A stretch of DNA of 64,000 bases from Myxococcota bacterium (lineage in GTDB: Bacteria > Myxococcota_A > UBA796 > GCA-2862545), in contig JBCCQY010000007.1 in the NCBI GenBank assembly GCA_039208735.1, forward strand, positions 32,001-96,000, given 5' to 3'. The notes under the pieces are model-generated. The model did no database searches. It was given only the letters and a program-made list of their open reading frames with translations, and was not told where the DNA came from. Below are positions 25,417 through 57,712 of the stretch, piece after piece (positions within the stretch are counted from its first letter, which is position 1; the number at the start of each line of letters is the position of its first letter). The translations under genes and the position numbers were made by a program.

Positions 25417-25896
25417 ATGTCACGGCTCGCGCGCGGGAGAGGGCCGGTCTGGAGAGGGTTGGTGGCAGACACCGATAGTGATGGTCGGCGACCTGTCGAG
25501 ACGCCGCAAGGAACGGCCTATCTCGAGATTGGCGCCGATGGCAGCGTACATATTCAAGGCCCCCCAGAGGCGGTTCGATACATCAACGACCACCTTCAGC
25601 GGGCCATCGCCCAAGCTCGGGGTGACCGACGCCCGCGCAGACGCGTGTTGACCGGTCGGGTCATCAAGAACAAGATGACCAAGACCGTCGTGGTGCAGGT
25701 CACCCGTCGGGTTCGACATCGGCGCTACGGCAAGTACGTCGAACGACGTAAGACCTACATGGCCCACGACGAACACGAGGAATGCAAGGTCGACGACGTC
25801 GTCGTGATCCAAGAGTGCCGGCCTCTGTCGCGGCACAAACGGCACCGTGTCGTGTCGATCTACTCGCAGGAGCGCGGGATGGCAGGGCGTCCTTGA
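25417..25896 (+). CDS. rpsQ: Ribosomal protein uS17 paralog with N-terminal extension
   Basis: LTGRVIKNKMTKTVVVQVTRRVRHRRYGKYVERRKTYMAHDE...DVVVIQECRPLSRHKR; start may be GTG 25462 after GGAGAG. Confidence 0.85.
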   Translation: MSRLARGRGPVWRGLVADTDSDGRRPVETPQGTAYLEIGADGSVHIQGPPEAVRYINDHLQRAIAQARGDRRPRRRVLTGRVIKNKMTKTVVVQVTRRVRHRRYGKYVERRKTYMAHDEHEECKVDDVVVIQECRPLSRHKRHRVVSIYSQERGMAGRP

Positions 25897-30509: not shown

Positions 30510-31199
30510 GTGCCACAACCACCGAATCCGAAGGCCCCCCACAACCCACGGAACCGGCTTTCCCTCAATGATCTGCGCGCGGCGGCAAGGCTCGTCAACG
30601 CAGCTTTGGTGGGAATCGTAGGATTCTCTGGTTCGTGGGCGCACAACGCACGCAAGGACGCGAAGCAGGTTGCAAGAAATGCCCTCACCGGACTCTTTCG
30701 TCGGCAAAGCAACGCCGGACAGCCCCCTGCCGACCTCTGGTGCGTGAGCGGGGCCACCAATTTTGGGGTACCTGCCCTCGCCTATGAAGTTTCAACCGAA
30801 CTCCACATTCCCCGGATCGGACTCACGGCAAGGGAAGCCCTCCGCTACAAACTTGCGGAACTCGATGTCCTCACGCTGGTCGGGCGGCGGTTTGGCGATG
30901 AATCACGCGCCTTCGTCGACCTTTGCGATGTGTTTTGGATGATCGGCGGAGGGTCGCAGTCCGAGGCCGAGATGCGGCTTGCGGCGAAACGTGGCAAGCC
31001 CATCGTCGTGGTGCAGGGCTTAGGGGGTCGGGCGGACCACATGACGCTGACGGAGCTTCCTACCGCACAGTTCCTCGATTGCGATACCCTCGAGGTCAGG
31101 TCGCCGGATCGTGATCGAAAAACCTATCTTCGGGTCGCAGGGCAAGCTGCACGAGCCCTCCCTCACACCGCACCAGCCACGTCGGGACCCGTTTGTTGA
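30510..31199 (+). CDS. SLOG-superfamily (SMF/DprA/LOG-like) nucleotide-binding protein
   Basis: VGIVGFSG, VSGATNFGVPALAY, FWMIGGGSQSEAE, GKPIVVVQGLGGRA. Confidence 0.65.
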   Translation: MPQPPNPKAPHNPRNRLSLNDLRAAARLVNAALVGIVGFSGSWAHNARKDAKQVARNALTGLFRRQSNAGQPPADLWCVSGATNFGVPALAYEVSTELHIPRIGLTAREALRYKLAELDVLTLVGRRFGDESRAFVDLCDVFWMIGGGSQSEAEMRLAAKRGKPIVVVQGLGGRADHMTLTELPTAQFLDCDTLEVRSPDRDRKTYLRVAGQAARALPHTAPATSGPVC

Positions 31200-32052
31200 C
31201 GAGTTCGGCATACAACCTGGTGCGTTTTTGGGGCCACAGCGAATCCAGTCTCCCTTGCTGGTTTGGTAGGTTCCAAACGCGTTCGGCCAACGCCATCCAA
31301 ATCACGGGTCGGCCCGTTCCTGCGGTGAGGCGCCCCAGCTGCCGAAGGATGTCATGCGACCGCTGATACAGACGCACCGGACTACGCCCCTCGATTCGGA
31401 TTTCGGTCTCGTCGTGGTGGCAGTGGACCTCGATGGGAGGCACCTCGGTGCGGGTCCCCGACATGCTCGCAGCCACTCGCGACCGGAGCATCAGGGTGAC
31501 GTTGCGTCCATCCAGGACCACGGGCTCGCCAGGCTCCAGCTCCACGACGGGTCCCCCGGGTTCGCGCGCGTACCAAACGCCTTCCGCACCCCAGACGGCC
31601 GGCCAATCCGCCAGGTCTCCCGGCTGCAGTTCCCCATCCGCATCCAAATGCCACGCCAGGTGGTCCATCGGATGCTCCGGACCCTCATCGACCTTCAGCG
31701 TCGGCACCAGATCGGGAAGGCACAACTCGACCACGCGCAGCGCCACCCCAGGCGCAAACTCAATCCGCATGCCGCGGATTAGCTTGACGTCATCGCGTCG
31801 GGTTCCATCGACCCACACCCGACCTCGGTAGGCCAACAACCAAAGCGCCCCCCCTCGCAAGCCAACCCCCGCGTGGGCCACCGAAATCGCGGGGTCCCTT
31901 AGCTGAAGGTCGGCGTACGGACCTCGTCCTACGACCGCCCCCAAACCCAGGGGCTGAATCTCACCGTCCGGCCCCTCGAAGGTCACACCGATGGACGGCG
32001 GGCCCCCTTCCCCAGCGCCCGACGCCGTAGCTGACGGAATCGCACCTTCCAC
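31096..32052 (-). CDS. FHA-domain protein with probable C-terminal winged-helix-like region
   Basis: VVGRGPYADLQLRDPAISVAHA (FHA GR...SxxH). Confidence 0.7.
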   Translation of the reverse strand: MEGAIPSATASGAGEGGPPSIGVTFEGPDGEIQPLGLGAVVGRGPYADLQLRDPAISVAHAGVGLRGGALWLLAYRGRVWVDGTRRDDVKLIRGMRIEFAPGVALRVVELCLPDLVPTLKVDEGPEHPMDHLAWHLDADGELQPGDLADWPAVWGAEGVWYAREPGGPVVELEPGEPVVLDGRNVTLMLRSRVAASMSGTRTEVPPIEVHCHHDETEIRIEGRSPVRLYQRSHDILRQLGRLTAGTGRPVIWMALAERVWNLPNQQGRLDSLWPQKRTRLYAELVNKRVPTWLVRCEGGLVQLALRPEDRFFDHDPAT

Positions 32053-32158
32053 ATCCCCTCCAAGGCCCCGGATGCACCCCGGAGCCGCGTTCTTCTGACT
32101 TCACTGGGAGCAAGCTTCCAGCTGACTTTTCAAGCGCCAATGGCGCAGGAGAACGCGC

Positions 32159-32593
32159 ATGCTCAAGTCTCATCACTTTGCCGCAGCCACCGCCGCCGCT
32201 GCCACGATGCTCGCGCCGCTCACCGCGCACGCCCTTGTCATCATTTGGAACCCGGGTAAGCTCGAAGTCACGGTCGATGGCGCCTCGGAAGCAAGCATCG
32301 AAATCGATTCGTTGACCTACGTTCCTTGTGACGGCGCCGCGGTCACCGAAGAAGACTTCTCTGGGGACCTCGTCGCCGGCCTGCTGCTGGACCCGCCCAG
32401 CCCCGAGATCTGCTCGATGACGCTTACGCCGAGCGACGACGTGGTCATCAGCGGCACCAACGGGAATGGCCCCTTCGAAATCACCGTGTCCGCTTCGGAG
32501 TTTTCTTTCGATGGCGAAGACCTCCCGAAGTCGCTGCCGTTCAACATCACGTTCGGGACGGTACCCGGCCCCGTGATGCTGAACGTCGAGTAA
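32159..32593 (+). CDS. Small secreted hypothetical protein
   Basis: Signal peptide ending AHA, acidic beta-rich body with Cys pair; AGGAG RBS. Confidence 0.7.
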   Translation: MLKSHHFAAATAAAATMLAPLTAHALVIIWNPGKLEVTVDGASEASIEIDSLTYVPCDGAAVTEEDFSGDLVAGLLLDPPSPEICSMTLTPSDDVVISGTNGNGPFEITVSASEFSFDGEDLPKSLPFNITFGTVPGPVMLNVE

Positions 32594-32594
32594 G

Positions 32595-33443
32595 TCACGG
32601 CGCCTCATCTTCGATGGTGCGGGGGTCTACCGCGTTGTCGGAGTAGAGGCTGATCGGAAAAAGCGCCAGGTTCAGATGAAAGACCCGGTTCGGGACTTCC
32701 TTCGCCGCCGAATACAACGTCGGTGCAAGGATTTCCTGCAACCGGGACATGAGTTTCAGGTAGTCGTCTTCCGACAGCGCCAGGCTACCCGCCACATACA
32801 GACGGTCCGTTGGGGGAACTGTCTCGAGTGCGCGTTGGGCCATCGCCAACGTCTCGCGGTGGTACTCGGCCGCTCGGTTCGAGTCGTGGCCAGCGTCTAC
32901 CTGACGTGCGGTGCCCAAATCGGGCGCGCCTTCGACCAACCGGTAGTGCTCATCGAGCAACCCGTGCGCCACCAACTCGTCCATCGCGGCCTGCGCCTGC
33001 GCGTCGGTGAGGCGAGGACGCAGCGTCGCCGCCACCCAGCCCACCTCGGGCACATACTCTTCGCAGCGGGCGAGTTCGAGAATCGCGCCGAGATGCCAGT
33101 CACACAGACGGTTCTGTAGGGCATCAGCCGTGTTCTCCACGGGCTCCGGCTTTTCAAGTCCACTCAACAGATCCTTCGCCCGGTCCCGAATCAGACTCGA
33201 GTTGCCGACTTCCCGCTCCACGAGCGTGAGAAACTCGACCCGCTGGCGGTCGGTCAGCTCAAGCCGCGTGGCGATTTGCTCGGCCAGCGCAGGCTGGAGG
33301 TTTCGACGTCCGTTGAGGATCTGGCTCAACCATGCCGGAGACCGACCCACGGACCTGGCAAATTCGAACTGCTTGAGGTCCCGGTCGCGCATCAAACCCT
33401 GAAGGTAGTCCCGATAGCTGGCTCGCCGACTCGCCGTGTTCAT
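32595..33443 (-). CDS. TIGR02147/DUF4423 family HTH protein
   Basis: YRDYL, SPAWLSQILNGRRNL, WHLGAILEL, VFHLNLALFP; alternative start 33488. Confidence 0.85.
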   Translation of the reverse strand: MNTASRRASYRDYLQGLMRDRDLKQFEFARSVGRSPAWLSQILNGRRNLQPALAEQIATRLELTDRQRVEFLTLVEREVGNSSLIRDRAKDLLSGLEKPEPVENTADALQNRLCDWHLGAILELARCEEYVPEVGWVAATLRPRLTDAQAQAAMDELVAHGLLDEHYRLVEGAPDLGTARQVDAGHDSNRAAEYHRETLAMAQRALETVPPTDRLYVAGSLALSEDDYLKLMSRLQEILAPTLYSAAKEVPNRVFHLNLALFPISLYSDNAVDPRTIEDEAP

Positions 33444-33484
33444 CAGCCCTCCCGGTGCAAGGAAGGAACCTGAATACGCGAGAT

Positions 33485-36169
33485 TCACAACTCCGTGAAT
33501 TCACGATACGTGAATGAATCGGGACCCAGCGGGTACACCCCCCGGAATCCGAGAAAGCCGTACCGCTCGAAGGTCCGCTCTCGGGGGCGACTCGTACTCC
33601 GTGCATTGCGGCCCCCGTACTGCCAAGTTCCGCCACGGACAATCGCCATCTCTCCTTCGGAAACGGCCTCGGGAGGCAGCGCACGGCCGTGCTTGACCAC
33701 CCCACCTGCGTCGAAGCACCAGTCGCGAACGTTTCCCCCCAAGCCCCGCACCCCATAGGGACTGATGTCGGTCTCGACGTACCGAGGGTCGTCGACGGGC
33801 ACCGCACCGCGACGGCCGCGGTGACTCGAGAACATGCAGCACCAAGCCGAATCGATGTGTTGGCCCCACGGATGGATGCGTCCATCCACGCCTCGGGCCG
33901 CCTTCTCCCATTCGAAGTCTCCGGGCAACCGCCACGGCTTGCCATCCTGGCGTTCGCGCCATCGAAGGTAGGCCATCGCAGACGACCAGTCGATGTTGGT
34001 TACCGGCCGGCGTGCCAAGGCTGGATCAGGGAGGGCGTAGCGACCGTCTCGAAGAACGAAGAGCGCGTCTCCCACGGCTTGACCAGCTTCGGTGCGCCGC
34101 CGCGGAACGTAGGCCTCGGCCTCCTCGGGCGAACAATCCTGAAGGAACGCAGCGTAGGCTCGGTTCGTGACGGGATCCCGCTGCATGACAAACCCTGAGA
34201 CCCACACGCGGGCTGCGGGATGGTTGTTGTAGGCCTCGTCTTCGTCGCCTCCCGAATGAAACCAGCCCTCCGGAACGTAGATTTCGTCGTCGGCCAATGC
34301 ATCGGCGGGCGGCAACCACACGGGCGGGGTGCGAGCGTCCCAGTGTCCCAACCGAGGGACTTCGACCGGATACCGAACCGTGGCGCGCCCCGGCGCTCGA
34401 ATCACGAGGTGGTAGCTCCCCGTGGGCAGGACGTAGTTCTCGATGGGCTCAGAGCCGAAGTCACCCCGGTGCTCGAGCTGTAGGCGACGGTGCCGCTCCA
34501 CGTACGCATAGAGTTGCACGCTCGCGCCGGGCGGGGTGGTCACAAGCGAAAGACGACCATTGCCTTGCAGGTAGGCATCCGCCCGTTTGCGCACCTTGTG
34601 CGTCGGGGGGAGGGCCTGCATATGAAGGCGCATGCCGCTTTCGGCCCGGACGCCATCTGCCGAATCGCGATGCTTCTCCGCCCGCTCGTGCCGAGCCATG
34701 TAGCGTTCGACGAGGGCCTCATGGGCTTCCTCAAGCATGGGAACGAGCTGCAGGGCGGCGTAGAACTCGCGCTGGGCCGCAACGGTCTCTTCGATGGCTT
34801 GTTGCTCGGCCTCCTCCGCGCGCCGTTCAAGCTCCCAGGCAGGCCAACGCGCCTCCTCGGGTTGCCACCCCTCGATTTGGGCGAGAATCCGTTCGCTGGA
34901 TTCGCGAAACTCCCTGGCCAAGGCATTCGACGCTTCGATCTGCGGCTGGCGCTCGGTGGCTTGGCTCACGAGGCTCAACGCCTGTTCTCGAAGCCGCACC
35001 CCCTCGAGCCACTCCTGCATCGCATTGGTGAGGGCGTCTGCGGATTCAAAGCGCTCACCAGGCTCTCGGGCCATGGCACGATGGCAGATGCTCTTGAGGG
35101 CGAGCGGCACGCCATTGCGGTCCGACCCGCTGGGAGAGGTTCCTGGGTCGCTCGTCATGGTGAACGTGGCGCTCGAGTTGCGGGGGCCCGGATCCAGCCG
35201 TGGTGGGCCGTGCTTCACCTGTTCAACGATGCTTCGCCAATCGGGACCTGAATACGGCAGGCGGTTCGACAAAATCAGGTAGAGCAGAACCCCCAACGTG
35301 TACACATCGCTGCGCTCATCGACCTTGTCGTGCTCCATCCGCGCCTGTTCGGGCGCAAGGTAGGGAGGACTCCCGATGATTCCCGCGGTTCGATGACTCC
35401 GTCCGTCATCCCCAAGACCCGTCGGCCAATGGCGAAGGTCGCCCTCTGTCGGGTCCGTCTCATGCCGCCGCCATCGAGCCACCCCCCAATCCAGCACGTA
35501 AGGTTGTTCGTGGCTGCCCAAACGGATGTTGCTCGCACTCAAGTCGCGGTGAACGACCCCTTGTTTGTGCGCGATCGCAACGGCGCGACACACGCCAAGG
35601 TACCCCCGCAACACCCTTTGAATCGCGGGCCACCCCCGAGTACCAGGCCCCCATTGCCCAGGTTGGACATGAACATGGGCTGCCTTCACCATGTGGTCGA
35701 AATCATGCCCTTCGATCAGCGGCATCGTAAACCAAGGTCGACCATCCGTCAGTCGGCCTTGGTCGAACACCGTAGGAATGTTCGGATGATCGAGCGCAGC
35801 GAGAATGCGCCACTCGAGCTTAAAGCGAGAGATGAGGCGTGGCTTGTCGATGTGTTTGCGCAACAGCACCTTCATCGCCACATGCCGGTCGAAGACGGCA
35901 TCGCGCACACGCCACACCTCACCCATGCCCCCTTCGCCGATCTGGTCGACATAGTGGTAGCGTTCGGCGATCGACGTGACGTCGACGTAAAGGGCAACGA
36001 GTTCGTCGCAGAGTCGCGCATCGAGCTTAGACTTTCTCAGGTAGCTCTGGATAGGGCGTTCGGGATCGCCTCGAATCGAATCGAAGAGAACCTGGATCGA
36101 CTTTGTGTAAGCCGGGTTCAGCCCTTGTTGTTCAACGAAGGACTCAATCCCCGGATGAACCTTGGCCAT
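33485..36169 (-). CDS. Ser/Thr protein kinase fused to FGE-sulfatase (SUMF1) domain
   Basis: IGEGGMGEVW, VAMK, HRDLSASN, DWG, YLAPE, DVYTLG; C-terminal PVTN, WRLPGDFEWEKAARG, SPYGVRGLGGNVRDW, GFR. Confidence 0.92.
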   Translation of the reverse strand: MAKVHPGIESFVEQQGLNPAYTKSIQVLFDSIRGDPERPIQSYLRKSKLDARLCDELVALYVDVTSIAERYHYVDQIGEGGMGEVWRVRDAVFDRHVAMKVLLRKHIDKPRLISRFKLEWRILAALDHPNIPTVFDQGRLTDGRPWFTMPLIEGHDFDHMVKAAHVHVQPGQWGPGTRGWPAIQRVLRGYLGVCRAVAIAHKQGVVHRDLSASNIRLGSHEQPYVLDWGVARWRRHETDPTEGDLRHWPTGLGDDGRSHRTAGIIGSPPYLAPEQARMEHDKVDERSDVYTLGVLLYLILSNRLPYSGPDWRSIVEQVKHGPPRLDPGPRNSSATFTMTSDPGTSPSGSDRNGVPLALKSICHRAMAREPGERFESADALTNAMQEWLEGVRLREQALSLVSQATERQPQIEASNALAREFRESSERILAQIEGWQPEEARWPAWELERRAEEAEQQAIEETVAAQREFYAALQLVPMLEEAHEALVERYMARHERAEKHRDSADGVRAESGMRLHMQALPPTHKVRKRADAYLQGNGRLSLVTTPPGASVQLYAYVERHRRLQLEHRGDFGSEPIENYVLPTGSYHLVIRAPGRATVRYPVEVPRLGHWDARTPPVWLPPADALADDEIYVPEGWFHSGGDEDEAYNNHPAARVWVSGFVMQRDPVTNRAYAAFLQDCSPEEAEAYVPRRRTEAGQAVGDALFVLRDGRYALPDPALARRPVTNIDWSSAMAYLRWRERQDGKPWRLPGDFEWEKAARGVDGRIHPWGQHIDSAWCCMFSSHRGRRGAVPVDDPRYVETDISPYGVRGLGGNVRDWCFDAGGVVKHGRALPPEAVSEGEMAIVRGGTWQYGGRNARSTSRPRERTFERYGFLGFRGVYPLGPDSFTYREFTEL

Positions 36170-36181
36170 GGCTCCCCCCGC

Positions 36182-36868
36182 TCAGAGCTTGCCTGAGCGT
36201 GCCAACGCCACCAACTGAGCGATGATGATCGACGAAACCTCGGCTGCGTCTGTGGCATCAAACAAGCGCTGGCGACGAGCTGCGGGCAGACCGGTGTGGT
36301 CGTCCAACGTGCCACTGACAAGCTTAGGGACCAACTGGGCGCGACAGTATCCATCAAGCATGCCCGTCACGAACACGGGGGCTCGAGGGTTTGTGTCGCG
36401 GAAGATCTCCCATTCTTCCTCGAGCCCCGGAACCCCCCCGCCAACGTTACCGTGGGTGAGCCCCCCCATAAAGACGGCGGCCCGACTGCTCTTAGACATG
36501 GCTTGACGCATTTCACGCAAATCGTCGGCGAGGCCCGCAGGATCACTCGGCGCTGCCCCTTTTCCATACAGTTGCCGGTTCACGAAGACCGAGGTGTCGT
36601 GCGCTTCGTTGGGGGGCTTTTTATCAAAGCCCTTGGCGAGAACCAGATGCACCGCGCCGCGATCCAATCGGCCGCCATCGACCAAACGGTGCACCAATGG
36701 GGTCACCGTCGGGTGCCCGCCAAAGATGACTTCACCGCCAAGCCGCCCGACCTCAACGAACAGCCTTGAGACCAACGATTGAAGTTCCTGTGCTCGCGAG
36801 GTGCGATTCAGCTCTTGCGGCAAGGCTGCGGAAAATTGAATCCGAATGCCATCCAGCGACTTGGTCAC
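36182..36868 (-). CDS. SLOG domain protein (cluster-3-like, TIR-associated)
   Basis: IQFSAALP, VIFGGHPTVTPLV, LREMRQAM, AAVFMGG...PGLEEEWEIF. Confidence 0.75.
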   Translation of the reverse strand: MTKSLDGIRIQFSAALPQELNRTSRAQELQSLVSRLFVEVGRLGGEVIFGGHPTVTPLVHRLVDGGRLDRGAVHLVLAKGFDKKPPNEAHDTSVFVNRQLYGKGAAPSDPAGLADDLREMRQAMSKSSRAAVFMGGLTHGNVGGGVPGLEEEWEIFRDTNPRAPVFVTGMLDGYCRAQLVPKLVSGTLDDHTGLPAARRQRLFDATDAAEVSSIIIAQLVALARSGKL

Positions 36869-38013
36869 GCCTGCTCCAGTAGCGTTCGCAATTGTTCTTC
36901 AAGCTGCGATATCGAACAAAAGCGCATTTCATGCTTGGCCGCCGCCCATGCCGCGGCCTCTCGTTCTTGCAACGTGGTGGTGTGTTCCTCAGTGCAAATC
37001 AAAAGCGGGGATCCGGCTGCCTCATCGACCCTTTGCCGAACCTGATCCGCGTTGTACATCAGCTGGAATGAAGGGATGGCCGCATTCCAAACCAACTGGA
37101 TGCGTCGCTGGTCTGCATCCACCAGACCGCTCCGTTCTCCTTCCACCCTCTCGTATTCGAAGGTCATGTCGCCCGACAGATGGCGCAACATCCGGTCGAT
37201 CCGACGGTCGAAGACATCCCGGCGCCCCAACCCCGCATTGACAAAGGAACGTACGCGGGTGTCCAAGCTCCGATCGCCCAGCATCCAATTCCAGTCCCGA
37301 GCCTGGGTTTCCAACCGCGCATTGGACTTTACACTGTGTGGAATCCAACCGTCCTTGCCGATCTGAAGGACCCGTACCGGAGCATGATTGGCCTGGGCAG
37401 CCGCGACTTCTCGCTGCACGAACTCCGACCCGACGAGCCCTGGCGTGCTGAGCAGCAGCAGGAAGTCCGTTTCGCGAATCGCTCGCATGAGGGCGGTGTA
37501 CCAAGGCTCGCCCCCGACCAGATCCGTACGGTCCCGATAGACCTGGAATCCACCAGCTTCGAGCCACCCTTGGACGCGATTTGCGTAGGCCTCCCCATCG
37601 TCTGCATTGTACGAAAGGAACAGACGCCGATGATGCCGGTGAGCCTTCAATCCCAGCTGAATCTGTACGGCTTCTTCAATGGCCTCAGGACTCGTCAAGC
37701 GAAGCATTTGCAGGGCATCGAAATCCGTCCAATCGCCTTCCAGATTGTAGTAGTCGTCGGGCTCCCCTTCGATGACGGGAATGATCGGAACGACCTTGAA
37801 GAGGGATCGAAATCGACGAGCCAGAGCCTGATCCTGCACCGATCCCTGCGTCATCACCAAGACGACCACCACATCGTGGAACGCTTTCAGCTCGGCTTCA
37901 CCATCGTCGAGAACGACCTCAATCGGCGTTTTTCGAAGCCGTCGAGCCAGGTCGCTCCGCAACGCTTCGCCACGAGCATGTTCAGCATTCGAAGCGAGAA
38001 TTCTGCATTCCAT
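36865..38013 (-). CDS. TIR-domain protein
   Basis: LFLSYNADDG...FQVYRD...GEPW...IRETDFLLLLSTP...SEFVQREV; stop overlaps SLOG start. Confidence 0.85.
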   Translation of the reverse strand: MECRILASNAEHARGEALRSDLARRLRKTPIEVVLDDGEAELKAFHDVVVVLVMTQGSVQDQALARRFRSLFKVVPIIPVIEGEPDDYYNLEGDWTDFDALQMLRLTSPEAIEEAVQIQLGLKAHRHHRRLFLSYNADDGEAYANRVQGWLEAGGFQVYRDRTDLVGGEPWYTALMRAIRETDFLLLLSTPGLVGSEFVQREVAAAQANHAPVRVLQIGKDGWIPHSVKSNARLETQARDWNWMLGDRSLDTRVRSFVNAGLGRRDVFDRRIDRMLRHLSGDMTFEYERVEGERSGLVDADQRRIQLVWNAAIPSFQLMYNADQVRQRVDEAAGSPLLICTEEHTTTLQEREAAAWAAAKHEMRFCSISQLEEQLRTLLEQA

Positions 38014-38210
38014 TCGTTCCCAACCCCAACGTTAATGGACTATGGTACGGCTCACCTTACAGCAATGGTTCAACTGGATGGAGTTCACGATTGGTGAAGA
38101 TCGAGGGGAGACCTCTTTGAATCCAATCGGCCGTGCTTCTGACAGAACCTCGACCGACCCTGACACACGAACCAGTCTCTCTAGGTCATGGTGGTCCCCA
38201 AGGAGGCGAC

Positions 38211-39365
38211 ATGGTGTGGCAAAGCGTGGCGATCATGGTCTTGGGCGCCTGCACAGGCGACTCGCCCGAGACAACCGAGACGGCAGCTCCCGAACCGACC
38301 GGGACAACTCCCCCGATGACCGCCGACACGAGTCCAACGGGAGACACCGGTCCGAAGTCGACCACGGATACCGGCCCAACCCTCCCAAGGGTCCTCCCGC
38401 GCGACAGTTTGGTGGTCCCCGACAAGGTTGGCGTGACCTTTCTCGGCCTCGATGGTTCGCTGCTCGAGTCGTTCACCTGGTCCGACCTGGTTGGCCCCTG
38501 CGCAACCTGCGGCGGAGAAGGCGGAAGTCCTGATGGGGATGGGCTGCTCCTGTCCTTCACAACCGGCGATGGCCCCGGGAATGTCGGCGCGGTGGCTCGC
38601 GTCAATGGCAAGGGTCAACTGGATTTTCGCGTCAACGGGTTCGCATTTCCGCATGATGTCATTCGCGACCCGGCCGACAACCACTTGGCGGTGGTCGCGA
38701 CCTTTACGAACGACGTACGGTGGATTGCCGGAGATGGCAGCTCGGGCACCGTGCTGCGAAGCATCGGCTCGTCCGACCCGGAGTTTCCAAACACGCCAAA
38801 CGGCGCCGAACTCCTAGAATACAATGGTCGAAACTTTATTCTCTTGTCCCATCGCCCCAACGCAAACGGACGCATCACCCTGTGGGACATCACCGACCCG
38901 AAGGATCCCGTCTTCGTTTGGCGCTTCCCGGAGACCGGGCGGATCGCGGTGCCTCACGGTCCCATTCTCCGTCAGCGAGGCGCAGATTGGTGGCTGCTTT
39001 GGGCCCACACCAACGGGGGACCCTCGGGCCGAGGAAGCGTAGGCTTGGCCGTGACGACCGACCCGACGCTGCGACCGACCTACGTGGCGGACCTCGATCC
39101 AGAGCCCGATATTGCCCCGTTCACGTTCCTTCGCGGCGTGGAGTTGCTCGACGATGGACGGATGTACGTCACCGACAGCGGAAGTGCCGGCGGCAACGGA
39201 GACGGCCGGATCTTCCTTGCCACATTCCCAACCCTAGCCCCGAGCGGCAACGGCGAGGTGGGTTCCATCGGCGATCAGCGTTTCGAAACCTTGGGCCCAG
39301 CCCCGTTGATCTATGACGACGTCACGTCACCCTTCGAAGCCTGGTACTGGCCTCCCGTCAATTGA
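38211..39365 (+). CDS. Hypothetical lipoprotein, beta-propeller-like
   Basis: Lipobox VLGAC, T/P/D linker; AGGAGG RBS. Confidence 0.75.
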   Translation: MVWQSVAIMVLGACTGDSPETTETAAPEPTGTTPPMTADTSPTGDTGPKSTTDTGPTLPRVLPRDSLVVPDKVGVTFLGLDGSLLESFTWSDLVGPCATCGGEGGSPDGDGLLLSFTTGDGPGNVGAVARVNGKGQLDFRVNGFAFPHDVIRDPADNHLAVVATFTNDVRWIAGDGSSGTVLRSIGSSDPEFPNTPNGAELLEYNGRNFILLSHRPNANGRITLWDITDPKDPVFVWRFPETGRIAVPHGPILRQRGADWWLLWAHTNGGPSGRGSVGLAVTTDPTLRPTYVADLDPEPDIAPFTFLRGVELLDDGRMYVTDSGSAGGNGDGRIFLATFPTLAPSGNGEVGSIGDQRFETLGPAPLIYDDVTSPFEAWYWPPVN

Positions 39366-40158: not shown

Positions 40159-41487
40159 TCAAGGACGATTCGTTGCGAGGTTGCGCGCCCCTCCTTCGGA
40201 CAGCTCGGCCCAGAACGCCCACGAATCCCCATCGTCTTCGGTGCGCGACACCACTTGCTCCCACACCCCAAACAACGCTCCGTTGTGTGCCACGATGGCA
40301 TCGAGCGGCTTTTCGGGAATGGGGAACCACGACAGGCCATCGGTGGAACGCCAACCGTCGAGGTCGCCCACGGCGACGTAGGCGGTGCCGCTCCAGGCGA
40401 CCGATTGCAGCTTGCCTCCACCTTCGTCCACGAACGTCCACACCAGTCCGTCGGTGCTTCGCCACCGCTCGCCCCCTTCGCCCACCGCCACGAAGCCGGG
40501 CGGCCCCCAGGTCAGGCCGAAGAACTCTGGCGCACCTGGAATCGTGCCGAACGTCCATCTCTCGCCATCCGAAGAGACCCCGACCTCTTCATCGCTCAAG
40601 ACCACGATGGTGTCTGGGGAGGCGGTCATGACTCGCCACACCACCCCTTCCTGGGCACGAACCGTCCACGCTAGCCCATCGTCGGACGACAGCAAATCCC
40701 CACCGAAGCTCGCCGCAACAAACCGTCCATCGAATGCCGTCACGGTCGAGAGCACGGGCTCAGTATCGGTGAGTTCCCAGGTCAGCCCTTGATCGACCGA
40801 GGTTCCCGATCGACCGGACGCATCACCGCCCACCACCACCCAACGGCCGTTGGCGTAGGCTGCCGCGCCAAAGAACCCGGCTGCCTCGGTCTGGAGGTAG
40901 GTCGGCGCCGGAGGCGTGGTCACGCTGGCTCGCAGTCCCGGATCCCCCACCACGAGCAATACGGGAGGCTCAGGATTGTCGGGCGCACGGTCCGCACCCC
41001 GGCCTGCAGCGCCTTGGGCCCGTTCGAGCAGGTCGAGTTGCCCGTCTGCCTCGATCTCTCGGTAGACCCCCGAACGTCGAGCAAGCCCTTCCACGTCGCC
41101 CGGCTCGCCAAGCTCGATGATCCAGCGTTCCCGAGCGAACACCACCCCGCGAATGTCGATCGTAGCGGTTGCTTCGTCGATCTCCGTGAGCGTCTCCCCA
41201 GCCGCCCGAAGGTTTTGCAATCCCACGTCCAGGGTGCACCATTGTCCGTCAGGAATGCGGAAGGCTGCGCCCTCGAGCAGGTCTTCCTCCACAATCACCG
41301 AGCCCGCTTCGCCCTCGCAGCTCGTAAAGGTCGCGGAAACCCTGCGGGCGGTCGCAACCTCCCAGACGCTCCCTTCCGTATCTGGGGGGGCAATCCGCAC
41401 CGACGCCGTGCCGGGATTTCCGACCGCGGTACCCCCTCCTTCGCGCCACAGCCCACAACCCACGAGCAACAGCAATCCGAGCATCAC
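40159..41487 (-). CDS. Lipoprotein with BNR/Asp-box beta-propeller
   Basis: LLVGC lipobox; repeated SxDGxxW Asp-box motifs. Confidence 0.8.
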   Translation of the reverse strand: MMLGLLLLVGCGLWREGGGTAVGNPGTASVRIAPPDTEGSVWEVATARRVSATFTSCEGEAGSVIVEEDLLEGAAFRIPDGQWCTLDVGLQNLRAAGETLTEIDEATATIDIRGVVFARERWIIELGEPGDVEGLARRSGVYREIEADGQLDLLERAQGAAGRGADRAPDNPEPPVLLVVGDPGLRASVTTPPAPTYLQTEAAGFFGAAAYANGRWVVVGGDASGRSGTSVDQGLTWELTDTEPVLSTVTAFDGRFVAASFGGDLLSSDDGLAWTVRAQEGVVWRVMTASPDTIVVLSDEEVGVSSDGERWTFGTIPGAPEFFGLTWGPPGFVAVGEGGERWRSTDGLVWTFVDEGGGKLQSVAWSGTAYVAVGDLDGWRSTDGLSWFPIPEKPLDAIVAHNGALFGVWEQVVSRTEDDGDSWAFWAELSEGGARNLATNRP

Positions 41488-42338
41488 GTGCCTCCCTCGT
41501 CCTCACCCGGCGTGGACAACGGAAAGAAGTTTAGGTTGAACTGGAAGACCTGGCCCGCGGGGGGCTCTGCGTTCGCACAGAGTTCGAGGATGCGCTCTTG
41601 GAAGGCATTGAACTCGTCTTTCAAGGTCGGCACAAGCGACGGTGGTGCACTGACGGTGACCGCGAGGAAGTGTCGTTCCTGGGGTTGCACATCGGACAAG
41701 GCCTGCTTGGCGCGCTCCAGCATGCCCTGATGGTAGTTGTAGGCGGCAAGGCCCGCGAGTTCGTGGGGCGTGACGACGCTGCCCCCGCCGTGGCTCACCC
41801 GTCCATCGTCATGGCGCACCAATAACTCAAGTTCGAACAGTAGATCCAGGGCTTGGCGCGCCTGGCGGGCGGTGATGCGAGGCCGGATCTGTCTTGCTAC
41901 CCATGCGGGATCGTCGCGAAACGAATCGCGATTGGCCAGTTCCCGAATCGCAGGGTGAATCCAGTTCGACAGGTAGCGAACGCTATCGCCTTCGATGCGA
42001 CGAGCCTCACGGAATCGTCGACTGGCCATGATGTCGACCCACACCGCGTTCTTTTCGGTGGGTGTCTCGGCCTGATCGAGCTGCACAAGCAGCCGAAAGA
42101 ACCGGGCTTCGGTGGAACCTAGCGAAAGCGCCTTCTGAAATCCCTCGATTCCCGCCTGGGTCAGGTTGCGACGCCCCGCGATCACATCCGAGAGCAGCGA
42201 CGGCGAGCGCTGGCCGGTTCGCGCCACGAAGGCCCGATGGCTGAATTTTGGATTCGCTACCTTCTTAGCATCGAACCACTCGGACAAGTACGCCCGGTAG
42301 TCCAGAAACGCGAACACGCTGGGAAGATCGTCGGCCAC
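41484..42338 (-). CDS. TIGR02147/DUF4423 family HTH protein
   Basis: SVFAFLDYRAYL, FSHRAF, VIAGRRNLT, WIHPAIREL, VFQFNLNFFPLS. Confidence 0.9.
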   Translation of the reverse strand: MADDLPSVFAFLDYRAYLSEWFDAKKVANPKFSHRAFVARTGQRSPSLLSDVIAGRRNLTQAGIEGFQKALSLGSTEARFFRLLVQLDQAETPTEKNAVWVDIMASRRFREARRIEGDSVRYLSNWIHPAIRELANRDSFRDDPAWVARQIRPRITARQARQALDLLFELELLVRHDDGRVSHGGGSVVTPHELAGLAAYNYHQGMLERAKQALSDVQPQERHFLAVTVSAPPSLVPTLKDEFNAFQERILELCANAEPPAGQVFQFNLNFFPLSTPGEDEGGT

Positions 42339-47557: not shown

Positions 47558-50515
47558 TCAAACGGATGCTACCATACGATTCAAAAGACGGAGTGCGTAA
47601 GGGCCTTGGGCCGCGAGCGGCTGCCAGGGTTCTCCATCGAACCATCTGGCCAATCGCTCACCCGCCCTGCGCTCACACGCGAAAACGGGTCGCGCGGCGG
47701 CCAGAATCCCCGATGCATCGCCTTTTTTCGACTGAAAGCGAGCTAGGCTTAGGAAAAACCGAATGAGACTCTCGCGGCGGGGCCCGAGCAGCTGGGTCGC
47801 TTTGTCAAGGGCATTGCCGTAGCACCGGCAAGCTGCCGCCAGGTTGCCCTGCAAATGCTCGACGTTCCCCAAAAGCATATCCGCAAAGGCTTGACTGCTT
47901 CGAAACTGCAGGTCGCCCCTGGACCAACCGGGGGACAAGGTATGCAACACGGAGTGGGCGATTTCAGCCCCCGAGGTAAGGTTACCGTATTCGATGTCGC
48001 ATATCGCAATTATAAGCTTGCACTCTGCAGCCGACCGTTGTTGCTCAGCCTCAACAAAGTACCGTACTGCCGCACTGGCGTAGGTGCGTGCTTGGTCGTG
48101 GTCGGGCACGTGTAAGAAGTACTCTGCGTGCTCACGGTGACATTGGGCCATGCCCGTGACGTGCCCGTCGGCGACCGCCAATGCAGCCGAAAGGTCCGCG
48201 TAGGCCTCGTACAGACGCCCCTCACGCATCAGGACTTTACCCCGTGCGTTCCGAGACATCCCTTCCATCGCAACCAGCCCTAACCGGCGTGAGAGCGTCA
48301 ACGCGTCTTCGAACGCCAACTTTGCCTGACGCACCTCGCCCATCCGTAGGAAGAGCGCCCCGCGGTTGAGGTGTCCTAAAATCACCGGGCCCGGCTCACC
48401 GGTGCGCTTCGCGGCCACCATGCCGCGATCGAGGTGTTTCGCGGCTGCATCGGCCTGGCAGGTCCAGCGGTGCCATTGCCCGAGCGACAGGTGGGTGTTC
48501 GCGATCAACTTGTCGTTGCCCTCGTCCTCTGCCAGGGCAAGGCTCTTGTGTAAGAGGTCCAGAGCAGCCTCACCATGCTCAAGGTGCAGCAGGTGAATCC
48601 CGAGCGCCGCCATCAGCGCCGAGTGCAACGGACCTTGCCCCGCCGCAAGCGTCGCGCGCATCGGCTCAAGGGCCGGCGCTCCGGGCTCGGCCGTCATCAA
48701 GGGGGCCGCATCGAGGATGAGGGCCTCGGCAGCCCCAAAATCGGTTTGAAGGGAATGTTCATGCGCTTCTAGGACGTTAGTGAGTTCCGCCAAGAACGAG
48801 GATAGAACCTAACTCATCCTTGATGTTTGGGCCTGCGTTCGCCACTCCCGCACGCGCTGGCGATAGGCCTTTAGGTGTCGGGCTCGCAGCACATCGTCAT
48901 CCTCGAGACGCTCGGCGGCAAAGAAGCGCACGGTGTCGAGCAAGGTGAAAACGGCCTGGCCGTACCGATCGAGGCGCGTGTTCAGCAATGACTTGCTGAC
49001 GAGCGATGAAAGCTGTACGAGCGAGTCGTCGACGGTCAACACCTCACTTGCAATGCGCGCACTGAACGGTCCTCGGAACACCGTGCACTGGGAGAGGGTG
49101 GTTCGTTCCTCATTGGTGAGCATGGACCAAGACCAGTCCACCATTCCTCTTAGGGTCGACGCCCGAGGAGTTGCGGGCCGAGGCCCCAACAGGTCCAACC
49201 GTTCGGGGAGAAGCCGCAGGAGTTCGTCGAGGCCAAGGGTCCGAACCTTGGGCACCGCCAGCTCAAGGGCCAAGGGAATGCCCTCGAGAGCCTCGACGAG
49301 TTGATCGAGGCCTTCGAGGTCCTCCAGAGCTTTCTGGGACCATCCTGCTTGACTCATCCGCTCAATGAGAAGTCGCACCCCATCGTCCGTACTCAATGGA
49401 CCGACGACAATTCGCTGTTCGCCTCGGCCAAGGGTGGCCTCACGGGACGTCGCCAACACCCGCAGCTCTCCTGCTGCGGCAAGCCAGCGTTCGACGTGAC
49501 GCGCCACGGGCCCCGCGATCCGTTCGATCGTATCGAGCACCAGCCAACCCGGCCCAACCCGGCGGAGGGCTCGGGCGATCTGGACCGTTTGGGCCTCCGG
49601 GCTCATGGCCGGTTCCGCTCGAACCCCGAGCGCCTGGCGAACGCCGCGCAACAACCCTTCGGCATCCTTGAGGTTCGCAGCATCGACCCACCATACGGGC
49701 GGCCCCCGACGCTCCGTGAGCTGCCGAACGAACTCAAGCGCGAGACGCGTCTTCCCCATTCCCCCCATGCCCGTCAACGTGACCCAGCGCCCGCCCTTAA
49801 ACCTCTTCTCAAGAGCGCTTTGTTCAACAGAACGCCCCACGAACGCGTCGAGCGCCAACGGCGCGGGGGCGGCTTCGGGCTCGAACCGGACCCCCGCCCC
49901 GCGCACCGTCAGAAGATGGCGCGGATTCATGGGATCGGACTCAATCTTCGCGCGGAGGCGATGCAGAGTGGTGTGGAGGGTGCTCGTGCGTACGCCCGCT
50001 GCGTAGCCCCAGACGTCCTGCAGCAGCCGTTCCCGCGTCACTACGCGGCCTCGCCGGTCATCGAGGTACCGCAGGATGGCCACCTCCATGGGAGTCAGCG
50101 TCACCCGCCCCTCCGGTCCCAAGACGCAACCCACATCAAAGTCGATCGACCGATCGTGGAGGCGAATGTTCCGATCGTGAAGGGCCTCGGGGGGAGCGAA
50201 TCCACGCTCGCCAGGCAGGCCGTCGAAGCGAATCCCGAGCCCTCGCACGGTCTTGAGGTGATCCGGCGCTTTGGGATCTCGCTCCACTTTCATCCGCAGC
50301 CGACGCAGCGTGAAATCCACCATGCGTCGTCCCGGAGCAGCCGTCCCCCAAACTGCTTGCTGGAGCTGGGGCCGCGGAACCGTCTGTCCTTCATGCTGGA
50401 CGAGGTACCGTAAAAGCGATAGTTCGAGCGGAGTCAATTCCACATCGCCATCGGAGCGGACCACCCGCCCGCTCGCCAGGTCGACCGTACAGTCAGCGAA
50501 CTGCCTTGGTGTCAT
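47558..50515 (-). pseudogene. Tandem wHTH + NB-ARC-like ATPase + TPR regulator interrupted by a single in-frame TAG (48809-48811)
   Basis: Two wHTH domains, GMGGMGKT, EGIPLALELA; reads RMS*VLSSFLAELTNVLEA in one frame into a 411-codon TPR ORF; paralog of 4837-7560. Confidence 0.75.
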
Positions 50516-50631
50516 CGGCACCCCAGGATCCGGATTCCGTCGGGGGTAACCGTCTTCGGGAGACTTGAAAACCATTCGGCGCCTTGTCGCGACCTTAATG
50601 CAACAGGTCCCGTCGGGCGCTTTTCACGTGG

Positions 50632-50809: not shown

Positions 50810-52216
50810 GTGCTCGACGAAGGGGTGCTGGAGCGAGAAGACGTGGCGTTGTTCATCAACGCAGCGACGACGTGCACCGGCCAATCCGAGTTTTACGGAG
50901 ATGCCCGCGAGCAACGTGTCTCGCTAGGTTTCCTGCACGATTACGTTTTCGGTAACTACCGACGTCTGTACGCATTGTGCCTGGCCGCAGGCATCAACCA
51001 CTTCAACCGCGCAGCGATCGTGCACCGCCTCCTGGCTGCGGGAGCCCCTTCGGACCCCGTCCGCCGGGTGGAAGAAGCCGCGTTGATCGCGGGAGCCCTT
51101 CGGCAGTTGCCCCCGCAGCGCGTCTACCGGCTGTTTACGACGCTGCGCCACCACCGCGTCAACAATCGACGGAGCCGGGCCACCATTCACACCTGGCTGG
51201 CCCAACGGCCCGACCTAACGTTCGATGCAGTGAAGTACCGGGGTCCCCTTCGTTCGGCCCTACGTCATGCCCATCTGCCGCTCGACGTGGAACTCCGCGA
51301 GTTTCTATTCGAGGGGCCGAACCACCGACCGCAGTGGTCCGCTCCGCTGCTCGATGCCTTTCGCCGAGCCCGCTACGATCAGCGAGCCATCTACGAGCTG
51401 CCTTACACCGTGGCCGAAGGCCTCGCGGCCACCAAGGGCATTCCCCGGGAGCGCTTTCTCAAGACCATCGAGCCTCGGCTAACGGCCGCGGAACGGGTTC
51501 GTCTCAACCGCTTGGCAGATGACGGAGGCTGGGCCACCCTCGATCTAGAACGCGTCCCCTTGGACCGCCTTTGCGTGTTGGTGCTTGCCCAACCCGTCGG
51601 GGAACGGTCGGAGGCGTTCCGGGCGGCGCTGAACCACCAGGCCAAACGCGTCTGGCGCGGTCAGGCGTCGCCGGCCCAGCACATTCACGTGGTGCTCGAC
51701 AACAGCTTTTCCTCACGATCCGGGGCCCAAAAGCGGAACCAAGCGTTGGCCGTCACGCTGGGATGCACCAAAGTGCTCGAAGCGGGGGCAAAGAGCTACC
51801 GCCGGTGGTGGACGAGCGGGGCGACCGATGACCTGCGCGTCACGCCTCGCGGCCAGACCGACCTGGCGACCCCGTTGCTCGCCGCATTGGAGGGAAAGCC
51901 CGATCTCGTGGTCGTGGTTTCGGATGGCTTCGACAACGATCCTCCAGGGGCGGCAGGCGAGGTTGTCCGGCTCTTCCGCACCCACATCGACCCCAAGCGA
52001 CACACCACCATCGTCCACGTAAATCCCGTGTTCGATGCCCAGCGCTTCATGCCAAGACCCCTAGGTCCAGGTGTGCCTATGGTCGGAATTCGGGATCCGG
52101 CCAACCTGCCGCTCAAGCTCGGCTTCGCATCCTTCGTGCACGGGTCGTCTCGCATCGAAGCCCTTGAAGCCTGGCTCCTCAAGCGCGCCGAACCCTGGCT
52201 GCGGGAGGTCCCATGA
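50810..52216 (+). CDS. Divergent Ro60/TROVE-like protein (helical N-terminus + vWA)
   Basis: AVKYRGPLRSALRHAH resembles Ro60/Rsr KYR...LLRLxH; complete vWA MIDAS VLDNSFS...TDLA...VVSDG. Confidence 0.7.
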   Translation: MLDEGVLEREDVALFINAATTCTGQSEFYGDAREQRVSLGFLHDYVFGNYRRLYALCLAAGINHFNRAAIVHRLLAAGAPSDPVRRVEEAALIAGALRQLPPQRVYRLFTTLRHHRVNNRRSRATIHTWLAQRPDLTFDAVKYRGPLRSALRHAHLPLDVELREFLFEGPNHRPQWSAPLLDAFRRARYDQRAIYELPYTVAEGLAATKGIPRERFLKTIEPRLTAAERVRLNRLADDGGWATLDLERVPLDRLCVLVLAQPVGERSEAFRAALNHQAKRVWRGQASPAQHIHVVLDNSFSSRSGAQKRNQALAVTLGCTKVLEAGAKSYRRWWTSGATDDLRVTPRGQTDLATPLLAALEGKPDLVVVVSDGFDNDPPGAAGEVVRLFRTHIDPKRHTTIVHVNPVFDAQRFMPRPLGPGVPMVGIRDPANLPLKLGFASFVHGSSRIEALEAWLLKRAEPWLREVP

Positions 52217-53343
52217 TCTTGGAAGCCCGAGGCCTCGACCTGCGACCGCCACAGGTTTGGGGCACCATTCGGCTCGTTCCCATCGTGAGGGACGTTCCGC
52301 TCGTGGACCTTCGGCTCGCCGTCCGACCCTATGAGGGCGCCATCGCGGTCACCGAAGTGTCGAAGCGACATCGGTACATCAGCTACGTGCCCCATGGCAT
52401 CGTGATGCGATGGAATGAGCGAGGCGAAGCCGCGGTGCCCGTTGAAACGCGCATCGGCGCTCGCGAGCTACGGCAGGAAGGCCCCGTGGTCTGGCTCAAA
52501 CGCATGGTCCGCCGCGAAGCGCGCGACCAACTGAGACTGTTGCCCTTGCACACGGCCATGGAAGGCTTCTTGGCCTTGCATTTCGGCGGACCCCAGGTGG
52601 CTCACCGGTACTACTCCAAGCGCGTTCTGTCGGACGGCTTCGATCCTCGAGTCGAAGGCTCGGTTCGCGGCGAAGCGCTCCCGGGTCTCGATGAAGCATT
52701 GCGAACCTTCGAAGTCCATGACGGGCAGTGTGGCATGTTGATTTTCGTGGGCGACCACCTGGCTTCGGCCATGCTCGTCGCCCATCCAGACGACTACCTC
52801 GCCCTGCACGAGGCCCTCCTGCAGGACTGCTATGGCACGATCGTGGCCCGCTTCGGATGGGGGGCTCGCCGGCAACCCCTGCCCGGCGTGACCCTCGAAG
52901 GAACGAGCTTTGAAGCGATCGGCACCTCCCTCCAGCGTGCGCGGGACACCTGGGCCTGGTACGCCCGCGAGATGTCGACCGGCCTTTTGGGGCGGTCGAT
53001 CCAGGCCACCACCCTACGTCAGGTAGGCAACTACTCGTTGGTTCGATTCTCGACGGGCTTCGATGTGGAGCGCGTGACACAGGACGGCGAGCACCTTGGT
53101 GAAGCCTTGGTTGCCGCGGACGGCACCCTTGCGTATCTCAAGACCTACCGTCTCGATCGGGGACAGAGCCGACGGGGACGGATGTTGTCGCGGCTCGCAG
53201 AGCACGATTGGGACATCCGAGCCCTGGCCAATGCGGACGGGCACGGCAAGATCGGCCGTGTCGTGGGCGATTTGGTGGCCGCAGGCCTCGACTGGGTGGT
53301 TCGAGACGAGATCCGACGTCAAGGCGGGTCGGAAGGCGTGTGA
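52213..53343 (+). CDS. ARPP-2-like domain protein
   Basis: PPQVWGTIRLVPIVRD..DLRL, YISYVPHG, LRLLPLHTAMEGFLALHFGGP, ALRTFEVHDGQCG, YLKTYRL; family name from memory; ATGA overlap. Confidence 0.6.
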   Translation: MILEARGLDLRPPQVWGTIRLVPIVRDVPLVDLRLAVRPYEGAIAVTEVSKRHRYISYVPHGIVMRWNERGEAAVPVETRIGARELRQEGPVVWLKRMVRREARDQLRLLPLHTAMEGFLALHFGGPQVAHRYYSKRVLSDGFDPRVEGSVRGEALPGLDEALRTFEVHDGQCGMLIFVGDHLASAMLVAHPDDYLALHEALLQDCYGTIVARFGWGARRQPLPGVTLEGTSFEAIGTSLQRARDTWAWYAREMSTGLLGRSIQATTLRQVGNYSLVRFSTGFDVERVTQDGEHLGEALVAADGTLAYLKTYRLDRGQSRRGRMLSRLAEHDWDIRALANADGHGKIGRVVGDLVAAGLDWVVRDEIRRQGGSEGV

Positions 53344-57705: not shown

Positions 57706-57712
57706 GATCGCC

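What the first reader, a model, noticed from the sequence alone, without database searches (positions are those of the whole stretch)
33485..38013. TIR - SLOG - Ser/Thr kinase/FGE gene run: candidate nucleotide-signalling defence system with a kinase output
Seen: three co-oriented genes, with TIR and SLOG overlapping by 4 bp and a 12-bp gap before the kinase. The TIR keeps the Glu of SEFVQRE and has extra N- and C-terminal alpha/beta regions. The SLOG is stand-alone, with no fused Sir2 or TM effector. This stretch looks less GC-rich than its flanks. Known: in Thoeris, TIR domains make NAD-derived signals that SLOG domains sense. Inference: a Thoeris-like variant in which a free SLOG receptor signals to a kinase-FGE protein and possibly to the downstream TIGR02147 HTH protein.
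Basis: partly seen in the sequence, partly recalled or inferred. Interest (0 to 1): 0.7.

Follow-up and report, generated by a model that had tools for sequence, protein, structure and literature searches.

The report
Minimal type III Thoeris-like gene pair
Two of the three genes are a stripped-down, divergent relative of the type III Thoeris anti-phage system that likely stops infection by destroying NAD+, while the kinase next to them belongs to a large separate gene family and is probably a bystander.

Summary
The three genes, their spacing and the TIR glutamate are real. The TIR and SLOG are homologues of type III Thoeris ThcB4 and ThcA, below NCBIfam cut-offs, and form a sister clade to the canonical system. 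The pair is a conserved unit: ThcB4-like is upstream of or fused to the SLOG in 97 of 111 relatives. The kinase is not part of it: kinase-FGE occurs in 0 of 135 SLOG clusters, any kinase is the next gene in 1 of 102, and 0 of 29 other kinase-FGE loci have the pair. Low GC is confined to TIR and SLOG. TIGR02147 is also unlinked. New points: this clade mostly lacks helper TIRs (1 of 17 versus 38 of 57), is sometimes fused, and the window copy has changed family-invariant TIR and SLOG residues while staying intact in related strains. Likely mechanism (inferred): the SLOG binds an ADP-ribose-derived signal and switches on the ThcB4 NADase. The scan found type III Thoeris before on other DNA.

The parts
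36865..38013 (-). ThcB4-like protein, 382 aa: cryptic-TIR/receiver-like N-domain (1-123), SARM1-like TIR (128-260, Glu202), C-domain with Can2/VC1899 nuclease-like fold and no conserved catalytic acids (263-382)
   Evidence: NCBIfam ThcB4 66.7 bits, cut-off 220; model and fold search; conservation
37408..37410 (-). Codon of the catalytic Glu202 of the TIR
   Evidence: Glu in 42 of 43 relatives; the column aligns with the WxxxE Glu of SARM1
36182..36868 (-). ThcA-like stand-alone SLOG (LD_cluster3), 228 aa; keeps R121, G148, E152, equivalent to BcThsA R371, G399, E403
   Evidence: (ThcA 49.9 bits, cut-off 110)
33485..36169 (-). Ser/Thr kinase-FGE protein, 894 aa; neighbour, probably not part of the system
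   Evidence: 12 kinase+FGE ORFs in this genome; family in 83 of 154 genomes of the order; sister of the C87 paralogue
32595..33488 (-). TIGR02147 HTH-DUF4423 protein; not part of the system
   Evidence: 17 tblastn hits in the genome; the C34 paralogue faces a homologue of window 32159-32593 in the same layout; 0 of 135 SLOG clusters
31096..32052 (-). FHA-domain protein; likely the kinase's older partner gene
   Evidence: paralogue next to the C87 kinase; an FHA gene directly follows the related kinase in G001
30510..31199 (+). Second SLOG of a different family (LSDAT_prok/LDcluster4); duplicated with FHA and kinase on C87

Best explanation
The TIR and SLOG genes are a two-gene, divergent form of the type III Thoeris core (ThcB4 + ThcA) lying upstream of an unrelated resident kinase-FGE gene, and they likely defend against phage by a predicted switch in which the SLOG binds an ADP-ribose-derived signal and activates the NADase of the ThcB4-like TIR. 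Shown here: homology, three-domain anatomy, conserved pairing and fusion, and no conserved link to the kinase or TIGR02147. Inferred: the cassette was acquired separately; the SLOG pocket binds a cADPR-type molecule; ThcB4 and ThcA act as one unit; NAD+ depletion is the output; with no helper TIR in cis, the signal comes from ThcB4 itself or from another of the genome's TIR proteins. My odds: identity of the pair about 0.9, kinase a bystander about 0.9, this mechanism about 0.5.
For: The best NCBIfam hits are ThcB4 and ThcA. Relatives in the other clade pass both cut-offs (for example L195, L201, L176, L069). TIR and SLOG trees show the same two clades, with the window in clade A (SH-aLRT 96 and 100). 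ThcB4-like is upstream or fused in 97 of 111 clusters with enough flank, and 6 of 135 are fusions; five fusions group with the window TIR. In a 401-genome phylum sample, all 5 genomes with LD_cluster3 have it beside a ThcB4-like gene. The SLOG profile's best PDB hit is the 3'cADPR-binding SLOG of BcThsA (E 4e-4), with R371, G399 and E403 equivalents invariant in 58 of 58 relatives (ligand contacts from passages of bioRxiv 2022.05.07.491051). The TIR is the only recognisable enzyme in the pair: the C-domain has no conserved acid or lysine. Kinase: 0 of 135 clusters have kinase-FGE and 1 of 102 has any kinase next; 0 of 29 other kinase-FGE loci have the pair within 1.5 kb; a second ThcB4+ThcA pair in this genome (C204) has no adjacent kinase; the GC dip stops at the kinase. 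Related strains show no stops or indels in the covered parts and pN/pS 0.22-0.35 for the TIR.
Against: No biochemistry, and the type III mechanism is uncharacterised in print. The window TIR has Ala at R137 and Phe at W198, both invariant in 43 of 43 relatives; the SLOG has Leu at Q77 (Gln in 58 of 58) and Ala at the S290-equivalent, and K388 is not conserved in the family. The WxxxE Trp kept in all relatives is tied to cyclisation, which fits ThcB4 as signal maker rather than effector. The 12-bp gap suggests co-transcription with the kinase. Kinases lie within about 8 kb in 3 of the 6 closest relatives (L061, L062, L064); L062 has a second SLOG 73 bp behind a kinase; L066/L165 has kinase-TPR, FGE, a TIR-less ThcB4 and SLOG in one run. 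The window is not a clear defence island: PADLOC gave only generic hits among the 38 proteins scanned. Strain counts are small, at low depth, and X2 and X4 share most variants.
Confidence: 0.5

Rival explanations
1. ThcB4 is the sensor and signal synthase. The free SLOG is the receptor and is itself toxic or relays to an effector encoded elsewhere.
For: WxxxE Trp in 43 of 43 relatives and aromatic here. Clade A mostly lacks helper TIRs (1 of 17), so something must make the signal. Related SLOGs are fused to patatin (L035, L228), a metallophosphoesterase (L122) and REC-sigma54 (L039, directly behind a ThcB4-like gene).
Against: Many pairs sit alone among unrelated genes with no common third gene. 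The ThcB4-ThcA fusions add no effector domain.
Confidence: 0.17
2. The SLOG is an enzyme or antitoxin that destroys or soaks up the TIR product and sets a threshold; the TIR is the toxin.
For: SLOG-class domains include N-glycosidases, and SLOGs that degrade cADPR have been proposed (passages of PMC9503650). Invariant H52, R121 and E152 could be catalytic; R and E resemble the LOG catalytic pair (recalled, not tested).
Against: The same R and E are ligand contacts in the ThsA sensor pocket. The SLOG is called the effector of type III in print.
Confidence: 0.12
3. The window copy is drifting or inactive, a relic whose catalytic site has decayed.
For: Loss of family-invariant R137, W198 and Q77; long branches; no helper TIR nearby; a second pair on C204 could make it redundant.
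Against: Both frames are intact. Related strains keep them open, with more synonymous change than expected; the TIR core 132-222 has one amino-acid change in X2 and X4. E202, D161, S134, Y135 and SLOG R121/E152 are kept.
Confidence: 0.1
4. One reading: the SLOG passes the TIR signal to the kinase-FGE protein (and TIGR02147), which is the output.
For: 12-bp gap on the same strand, a layout seen for 39 of 6865 genes. Scattered kinases and FGE proteins near clade A (FGE in 5 of 46 clusters versus 0 of 89 in clade B). The kinase and its paralogue also sit near a second SLOG family.
Against: Kinase-FGE 0 of 135, TIGR02147 0 of 135. The nearby kinases are other types: the window kinase ranks only 45th to 106th among their hits in this proteome. 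940 of 3886 genes here have a kinase within 8 kb. The kinase has host-like GC and an in-genome sister without the pair.
Confidence: 0.07

Closest known systems
Type III Thoeris (ThcA/ThsD SLOG plus ThcB TIR proteins; van den Berg et al. 2024 Cell Host Microbe 32:1427; paper not held, known from citing passages and NCBIfam NF058525/NF058526)
   Same: Free LD_cluster3 SLOG directly behind a roughly 380-aa three-domain TIR protein; best NCBIfam hits; same gene order; conserved Glu and SLOG pocket Arg/Glu.
   Different: Below both cut-offs; separate clade in both trees; no helper TIR genes in cis; SLOG longer than the 184-position ThcA model; changed invariant residues in this copy.
Type I Thoeris (ThsB TIR + SIR2-SLOG ThsA)
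   Same: SLOG related to the ThsA 3'cADPR pocket (R371, G399, E403 equivalents).
   Different: No SIR2 domain; the TIR is SARM1/TIR_2-like with two extra domains, not ThsB-like; S290 and K388 equivalents not kept.
SARM1 and other NAD+-depleting TIR effectors (SPARTA, TIR-SAVED, Cat1)
   Same: TIR fold (SARM1 Z 15.4, rmsd 2.3, 123 aligned); family motif FISYRR...D...WxxxE matches SARM1.
   Different: The proposed receptor is a separate SLOG protein; the window copy lacks the RR pair and has Phe for Trp.
Kinase-FGE (FGS) proteins of kinase-rich multicellular-type bacteria
   Same: Kinase, helical linker and C-terminal FGE; 83 of 154 genomes of the order. FGS is described as a C-type-lectin-fold domain at the C-terminus of conflict proteins (passages of PMC7159879).
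   Different: This sub-branch has Ser or Thr in place of the catalytic-loop Lys (HRDLS); only this copy is next to TIR-SLOG.

Membership tests
Type III Thoeris | Stand-alone SLOG of LD_cluster3/ThcA type with no SIR2, Macro or TM effector | tested here: met
   PF18180 49.2 bits over cut-off 25; no other domain, no strongly hydrophobic stretch
Type III Thoeris | ThcA at NCBIfam equivalog cut-off (110 bits) | tested here: not met
   49.9 bits; clade B relatives reach 192-231
Type III Thoeris | ThcB4 at NCBIfam equivalog cut-off (220 bits) | tested here: not met
   66.7 bits; clade B relatives reach 372-420
Type III Thoeris | ThcB4-type multi-domain TIR protein adjacent to the SLOG | tested here: met
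   full-length alignment with cut-off-passing ThcB4 proteins; three domains
Type III Thoeris | Multiple TIR-domain genes in the locus | tested here: not met
   no other TIR match on this contig among 30 TIR_2 and 7 ThsB_TIR matches in the genome; description from bioRxiv 2025.12.03.692087
Type III Thoeris | Anti-phage activity | not testable with these tools
   needs plaque assays
Type I Thoeris | SIR2-SLOG (STALD) effector ThsA | tested here: not met
   no SIR2 or STALD hit on the 228-aa SLOG
Type I Thoeris | 3'cADPR pocket residues S290, R371, K388, G399, E403 | tested here: inconclusive
   R, G, E kept; S290 is Ala and K388 is Thr by a weak profile alignment
Active TIR NADase | Catalytic Glu and surrounding site | tested here: inconclusive
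   E202, D161, S134, Y135 kept; R137 and W198 changed
Can2/Card1-type nuclease (C-domain) | Conserved acidic and Lys catalytic motif | tested here: not met
   fold match VC1899 Z 10.3, rmsd 2.7, 113 aligned, but no acid or Lys column at 55% conservation in 263-382
Proposed TIR-SLOG-kinase system | Conserved co-occurrence of the kinase-FGE with TIR+SLOG | tested here: not met
   0 of 135 clusters; 0 of 29 kinase loci

The most novel reading that the evidence does not exclude
In this lineage an incoming two-gene Thoeris core has been wired to a resident kinase-FGE. TIR site and SLOG pocket have changed together to a new ADP-ribose-derived signal, and the liganded SLOG controls the co-transcribed kinase, giving a phosphorylation output to TIR signalling. 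A milder novelty is more likely (about 0.5): clade A is a self-contained two-gene or single-protein form of type III Thoeris.
Probability: 0.07. Interest if true: 0.75.

Novelty: new variant of a known kind. Interest (0 to 1): 0.33.

Why it matters
How type III Thoeris works is an open question: its signalling is called uncharacterised and it has no obvious effector. A sister clade reduced to ThcB4+ThcA, including natural single-chain fusions and one TIR-less form, narrows the effector to these two proteins and offers the simplest constructs for testing. The fusions (L061, L062, L064, L065, L164) are better test objects than this drifted copy. The kinase output that made the finding exciting is probably a chance neighbour in a genome with about 150 kinases.

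Tried and rejected
Complex prediction of TIR (A3) with SLOG (A4): no verdict, score 0.00; no evidence either way, and SLOG-kinase binding was not modelled. The search for homologous proteins found only the protein itself for the TIR and two relatives for the SLOG. The representative search with A2 gave 436 proteins at E up to 1e-30, mostly 370-420 aa among the 150 listed, without context. No sigma-70 promoter-like site and no informative terminator in 32000-38400. No RNA holder listed. No contig skipping the TIR-SLOG cassette was seen in four runs, and only the possible source run X1 bridges the SLOG-kinase junction, so insertion is inferred, not observed. Viral contigs gave 1 related locus, not examined; plasmids none with the single protein. 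SLOG search of 41 relatives: 1 weak hit besides the own genome. Protein comparison failed. The original type III paper is not held. Literature searches listed nothing whose title or abstract describes a TIR-SLOG-kinase system; 'kinase' has 0 occurrences in the main text of the 2025 Thoeris survey, but its Table S1 was not seen. Rejected: C-domain as active nuclease; TIGR02147 as target; assembly chimera at the junction (one X1 contig spans 35490-38158 without differences).
Full report
Observation. The ORFs, strand, 4-bp overlap and 12-bp gap are as described. Pfam gives TIR_2, SLOG LD_cluster3, kinase plus FGE, and HTH-DUF4423. PADLOC 2023 gives only generic TIR and kinase hits and nothing for the SLOG. 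The genome is 9.4 Mb and 64% GC with 148-162 kinase ORFs depending on threshold; that it is a myxobacterium-like organism is my inference from gene content.

Identity of the pair. NCBIfam's best hits are Thoeris type III ThcB4 (66.7 bits, cut-off 220) and ThcA (49.9, cut-off 110). I collected SLOG relatives from metagenomes (best 80 of at least 411), GTDB genomes (79 loci from the best 80 of 151) and a phylum sample. Quick trees of SLOG (89 rows) and TIR (58 rows, clade B subsampled) give the same split. Clade B holds proteins that pass the NCBIfam cut-offs. Clade A holds the window proteins, on long branches, so their exact place inside it is unsure. After clustering 164 loci into 135 at 90% identity, a ThcB4-like gene is directly upstream or fused in 97 of 111 with enough flank, and 6 of 135 are fusions. 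My ThcB4 profile was built partly from these loci, so the count is not fully independent; NCBIfam confirmed ThcB4 similarity for the subset scanned. Small helper TIR genes lie near 38 of 57 clade B but 1 of 17 clade A loci with both flanks; L061 and L065 also have them but further away or on a short contig. No other TIR match lies on the window's contig.

Anatomy. The 44-sequence model (pLDDT 88) has three domains: an N-domain like a cryptic TIR or receiver (5FOR Z 10.7, rmsd 3.0, 114 aligned), a TIR closest to SARM1 (Z 15.4, rmsd 2.3, 123 aligned), and a C-domain like the nuclease domain of VC1899/Can2 (Z 10.3, rmsd 2.7, 113 aligned) (the C-domain was barely tested in that whole-model search). 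No acid or Lys is conserved in the C-domain. The family TIR motif matches SARM1. The window copy keeps S134, Y135, D161 and E202 but has A137 and F198 where 43 of 43 relatives have Arg and Trp. The SLOG profile's best PDB hit is the BcThsA SLOG (E 4e-4). R121, G148 and E152 align with R371, G399 and E403, which contact 3'cADPR (passages of bioRxiv 2022.05.07.491051). The S290 equivalent is Ala, K388 is not conserved, and the family-invariant Q77 is Leu. Contigs of related strains show no stops or indels in the parts covered: TIR 11 synonymous versus 12 and 7 non-synonymous bases (pN/pS 0.35 and 0.22), SLOG 3 versus 1 and 1 versus 0. These are small, low-depth and largely shared counts.

The kinase is not a conserved part. 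From the SLOG side: kinase-FGE in 0 of 135 clusters, TIGR02147 in 0 of 135, any kinase as next same-strand gene in 1 of 102 (L061, about 500 bp gap, no FGE domain), any kinase in the fetched flank in 6 of 135. From the kinase side: the family is in 83 of 154 genomes of the order; 0 of the 29 other loci fetched (of about 190 matches) have SLOG or ThcB4 within 1.5 kb; of 12 kinase-FGE ORFs in this genome only this one has them within three genes. Its sister is the C87 paralogue (46% identity, SH-aLRT 100), which sits with paralogues of the window's FHA and second SLOG; none of my TIR/ThcA profiles hit the 14 kb fetched there. The related kinase in G001 is followed directly by an FHA gene, while those in G003 and G002 and a second G001 copy gave no hit with my narrow FHA profile. 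TIGR02147 has 17 hits in the genome, and on C34 faces a homologue of window 32159-32593 as here. The GC dip is limited to TIR and SLOG. I infer a mosaic: a resident kinase-FHA module, an interposed TIGR02147 pair and a separately acquired TIR-SLOG cassette.

Against that reading: the 12-bp gap is a layout seen for 39 of 6865 genes; 3 of the 6 closest relatives have kinases within about 8 kb, against a background of 940 of 3886 genes in this genome; L062 has a second SLOG right behind a kinase; L066/L165 has kinase-TPR, FGE, TIR-less ThcB4 and SLOG in one run; FGE proteins are near 5 of 46 clade A and 0 of 89 clade B clusters. These kinases are not orthologues of the window kinase, so they look like shared conflict-island neighbourhoods rather than one system. 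Co-transcription and local co-option remain possible.

Mechanism. The SLOG has a ThsA-like pocket and no effector domain; its near-constant partner carries the only recognisable active site; and the two are fused in several relatives. I therefore favour a SLOG-gated ThcB4 NADase (inferred, 0.5). In clade B the helper TIRs would make the signal; in clade A it would come from ThcB4 itself or from one of the other TIR proteins (30 TIR_2 matches in this genome). Rivals: ThcB4 as synthase with a distant effector (0.17), SLOG as degrading enzyme or antitoxin (0.12), decayed copy (0.10), kinase output (0.07).

What is known. Type III Thoeris is described as several TIR proteins plus a SLOG effector with uncharacterised signalling (bioRxiv 2025.12.03.692087, passages and section 5; supplements not seen). 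Reviews mention its distinct SLOG (PMC13276650, passages) and the phage inhibitor TadIII-1 (PMC13243611 and PMC13513902, one passage each). The original 2024 paper was not available. PMC9503650 and PMC7159879 were seen as passages. Three earlier scan notes report reduced type III loci in other genomes, one with a similar NAD+-destroying two-protein model; these are unchecked AI notes, not support.

Verdict. A real locus; it works like type III Thoeris but fails the family cut-offs and lacks helper TIRs, so it is a new variant of a known kind. The kinase output is unlikely. Interest 0.33.

Noticed in passing
window 30510-32052 and G000:C87:250-4620 (L001): A second SLOG (LSDAT_prok/LDcluster4) plus an FHA gene is duplicated together with the kinase-FGE. 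Homologues were found in 3 of 153 other genomes of the order; one (G488, L119) has a kinase about 560 bp downstream on the same strand, two have none.
   Followed up: partly
G000:C204:7249-9165 (L017): Second ThcB4+ThcA pair in the same genome, clade B side; its SLOG passes the NCBIfam ThcA cut-off (116 versus 110), no helper TIR seen.
   Followed up: partly
L061, L062, L064, L065, L164, L018: Natural single-chain ThcB4-ThcA fusions (about 570-610 aa); good constructs for the type III mechanism.
   Followed up: partly
L066:7273-8636 (same locus as L165): A 232-aa ThcB4-like protein that appears to lack the central TIR, directly before the SLOG, behind kinase-TPR and FGE genes.
   Followed up: partly
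L035:3912-5606, L228:6510-8189, L122:7113-9050, L039:7614-9542: LD_cluster2/3-type SLOG fused to patatin, metallophosphoesterase or REC-sigma54 activator: possible other SLOG-gated effectors.
   Followed up: partly
L056:8638-9054, L157:3492-3896, L162:11149-11586, L053:906-1310: A 134-145 aa hydrophobic protein (no Pfam or NCBIfam hit in the three scanned) next to clade A SLOGs, three of which lack ThcB4; it may be an alternative membrane effector.
   Followed up: partly
window 33485-36169, residues 207-214: The kinase catalytic loop reads HRDLSASN; the usual Lys is Ser or Thr in this sub-branch (window, C87, G001, G003), while most other family members keep it.
   Followed up: partly
window 32159-33488 and G000:C34:68335-69714: TIGR02147 gene facing a small exported-looking protein of unknown family; the same pair recurs on C34. 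A second DUF4423 gene is at window 41484-42338.
   Followed up: partly
window 50810-53343: Two-gene run whose second gene is ARPP-2 (PF22549, E 2e-83); the ARPP name also appears among NAD+/ADPr-linked systems in a figure legend of PMC9503650.
   Followed up: no
window 48809-50575 and 4807-7560: Winged-helix (Trans_reg_C) proteins with NB-ARC or TPR domains.
   Followed up: no
window 25417-25896; 7582-8637; 57420-57716: A ribosomal S17 domain gene away from any ribosomal operon seen in the window; a T4-type RNA ligase gene; an integrase-core fragment.
   Followed up: no
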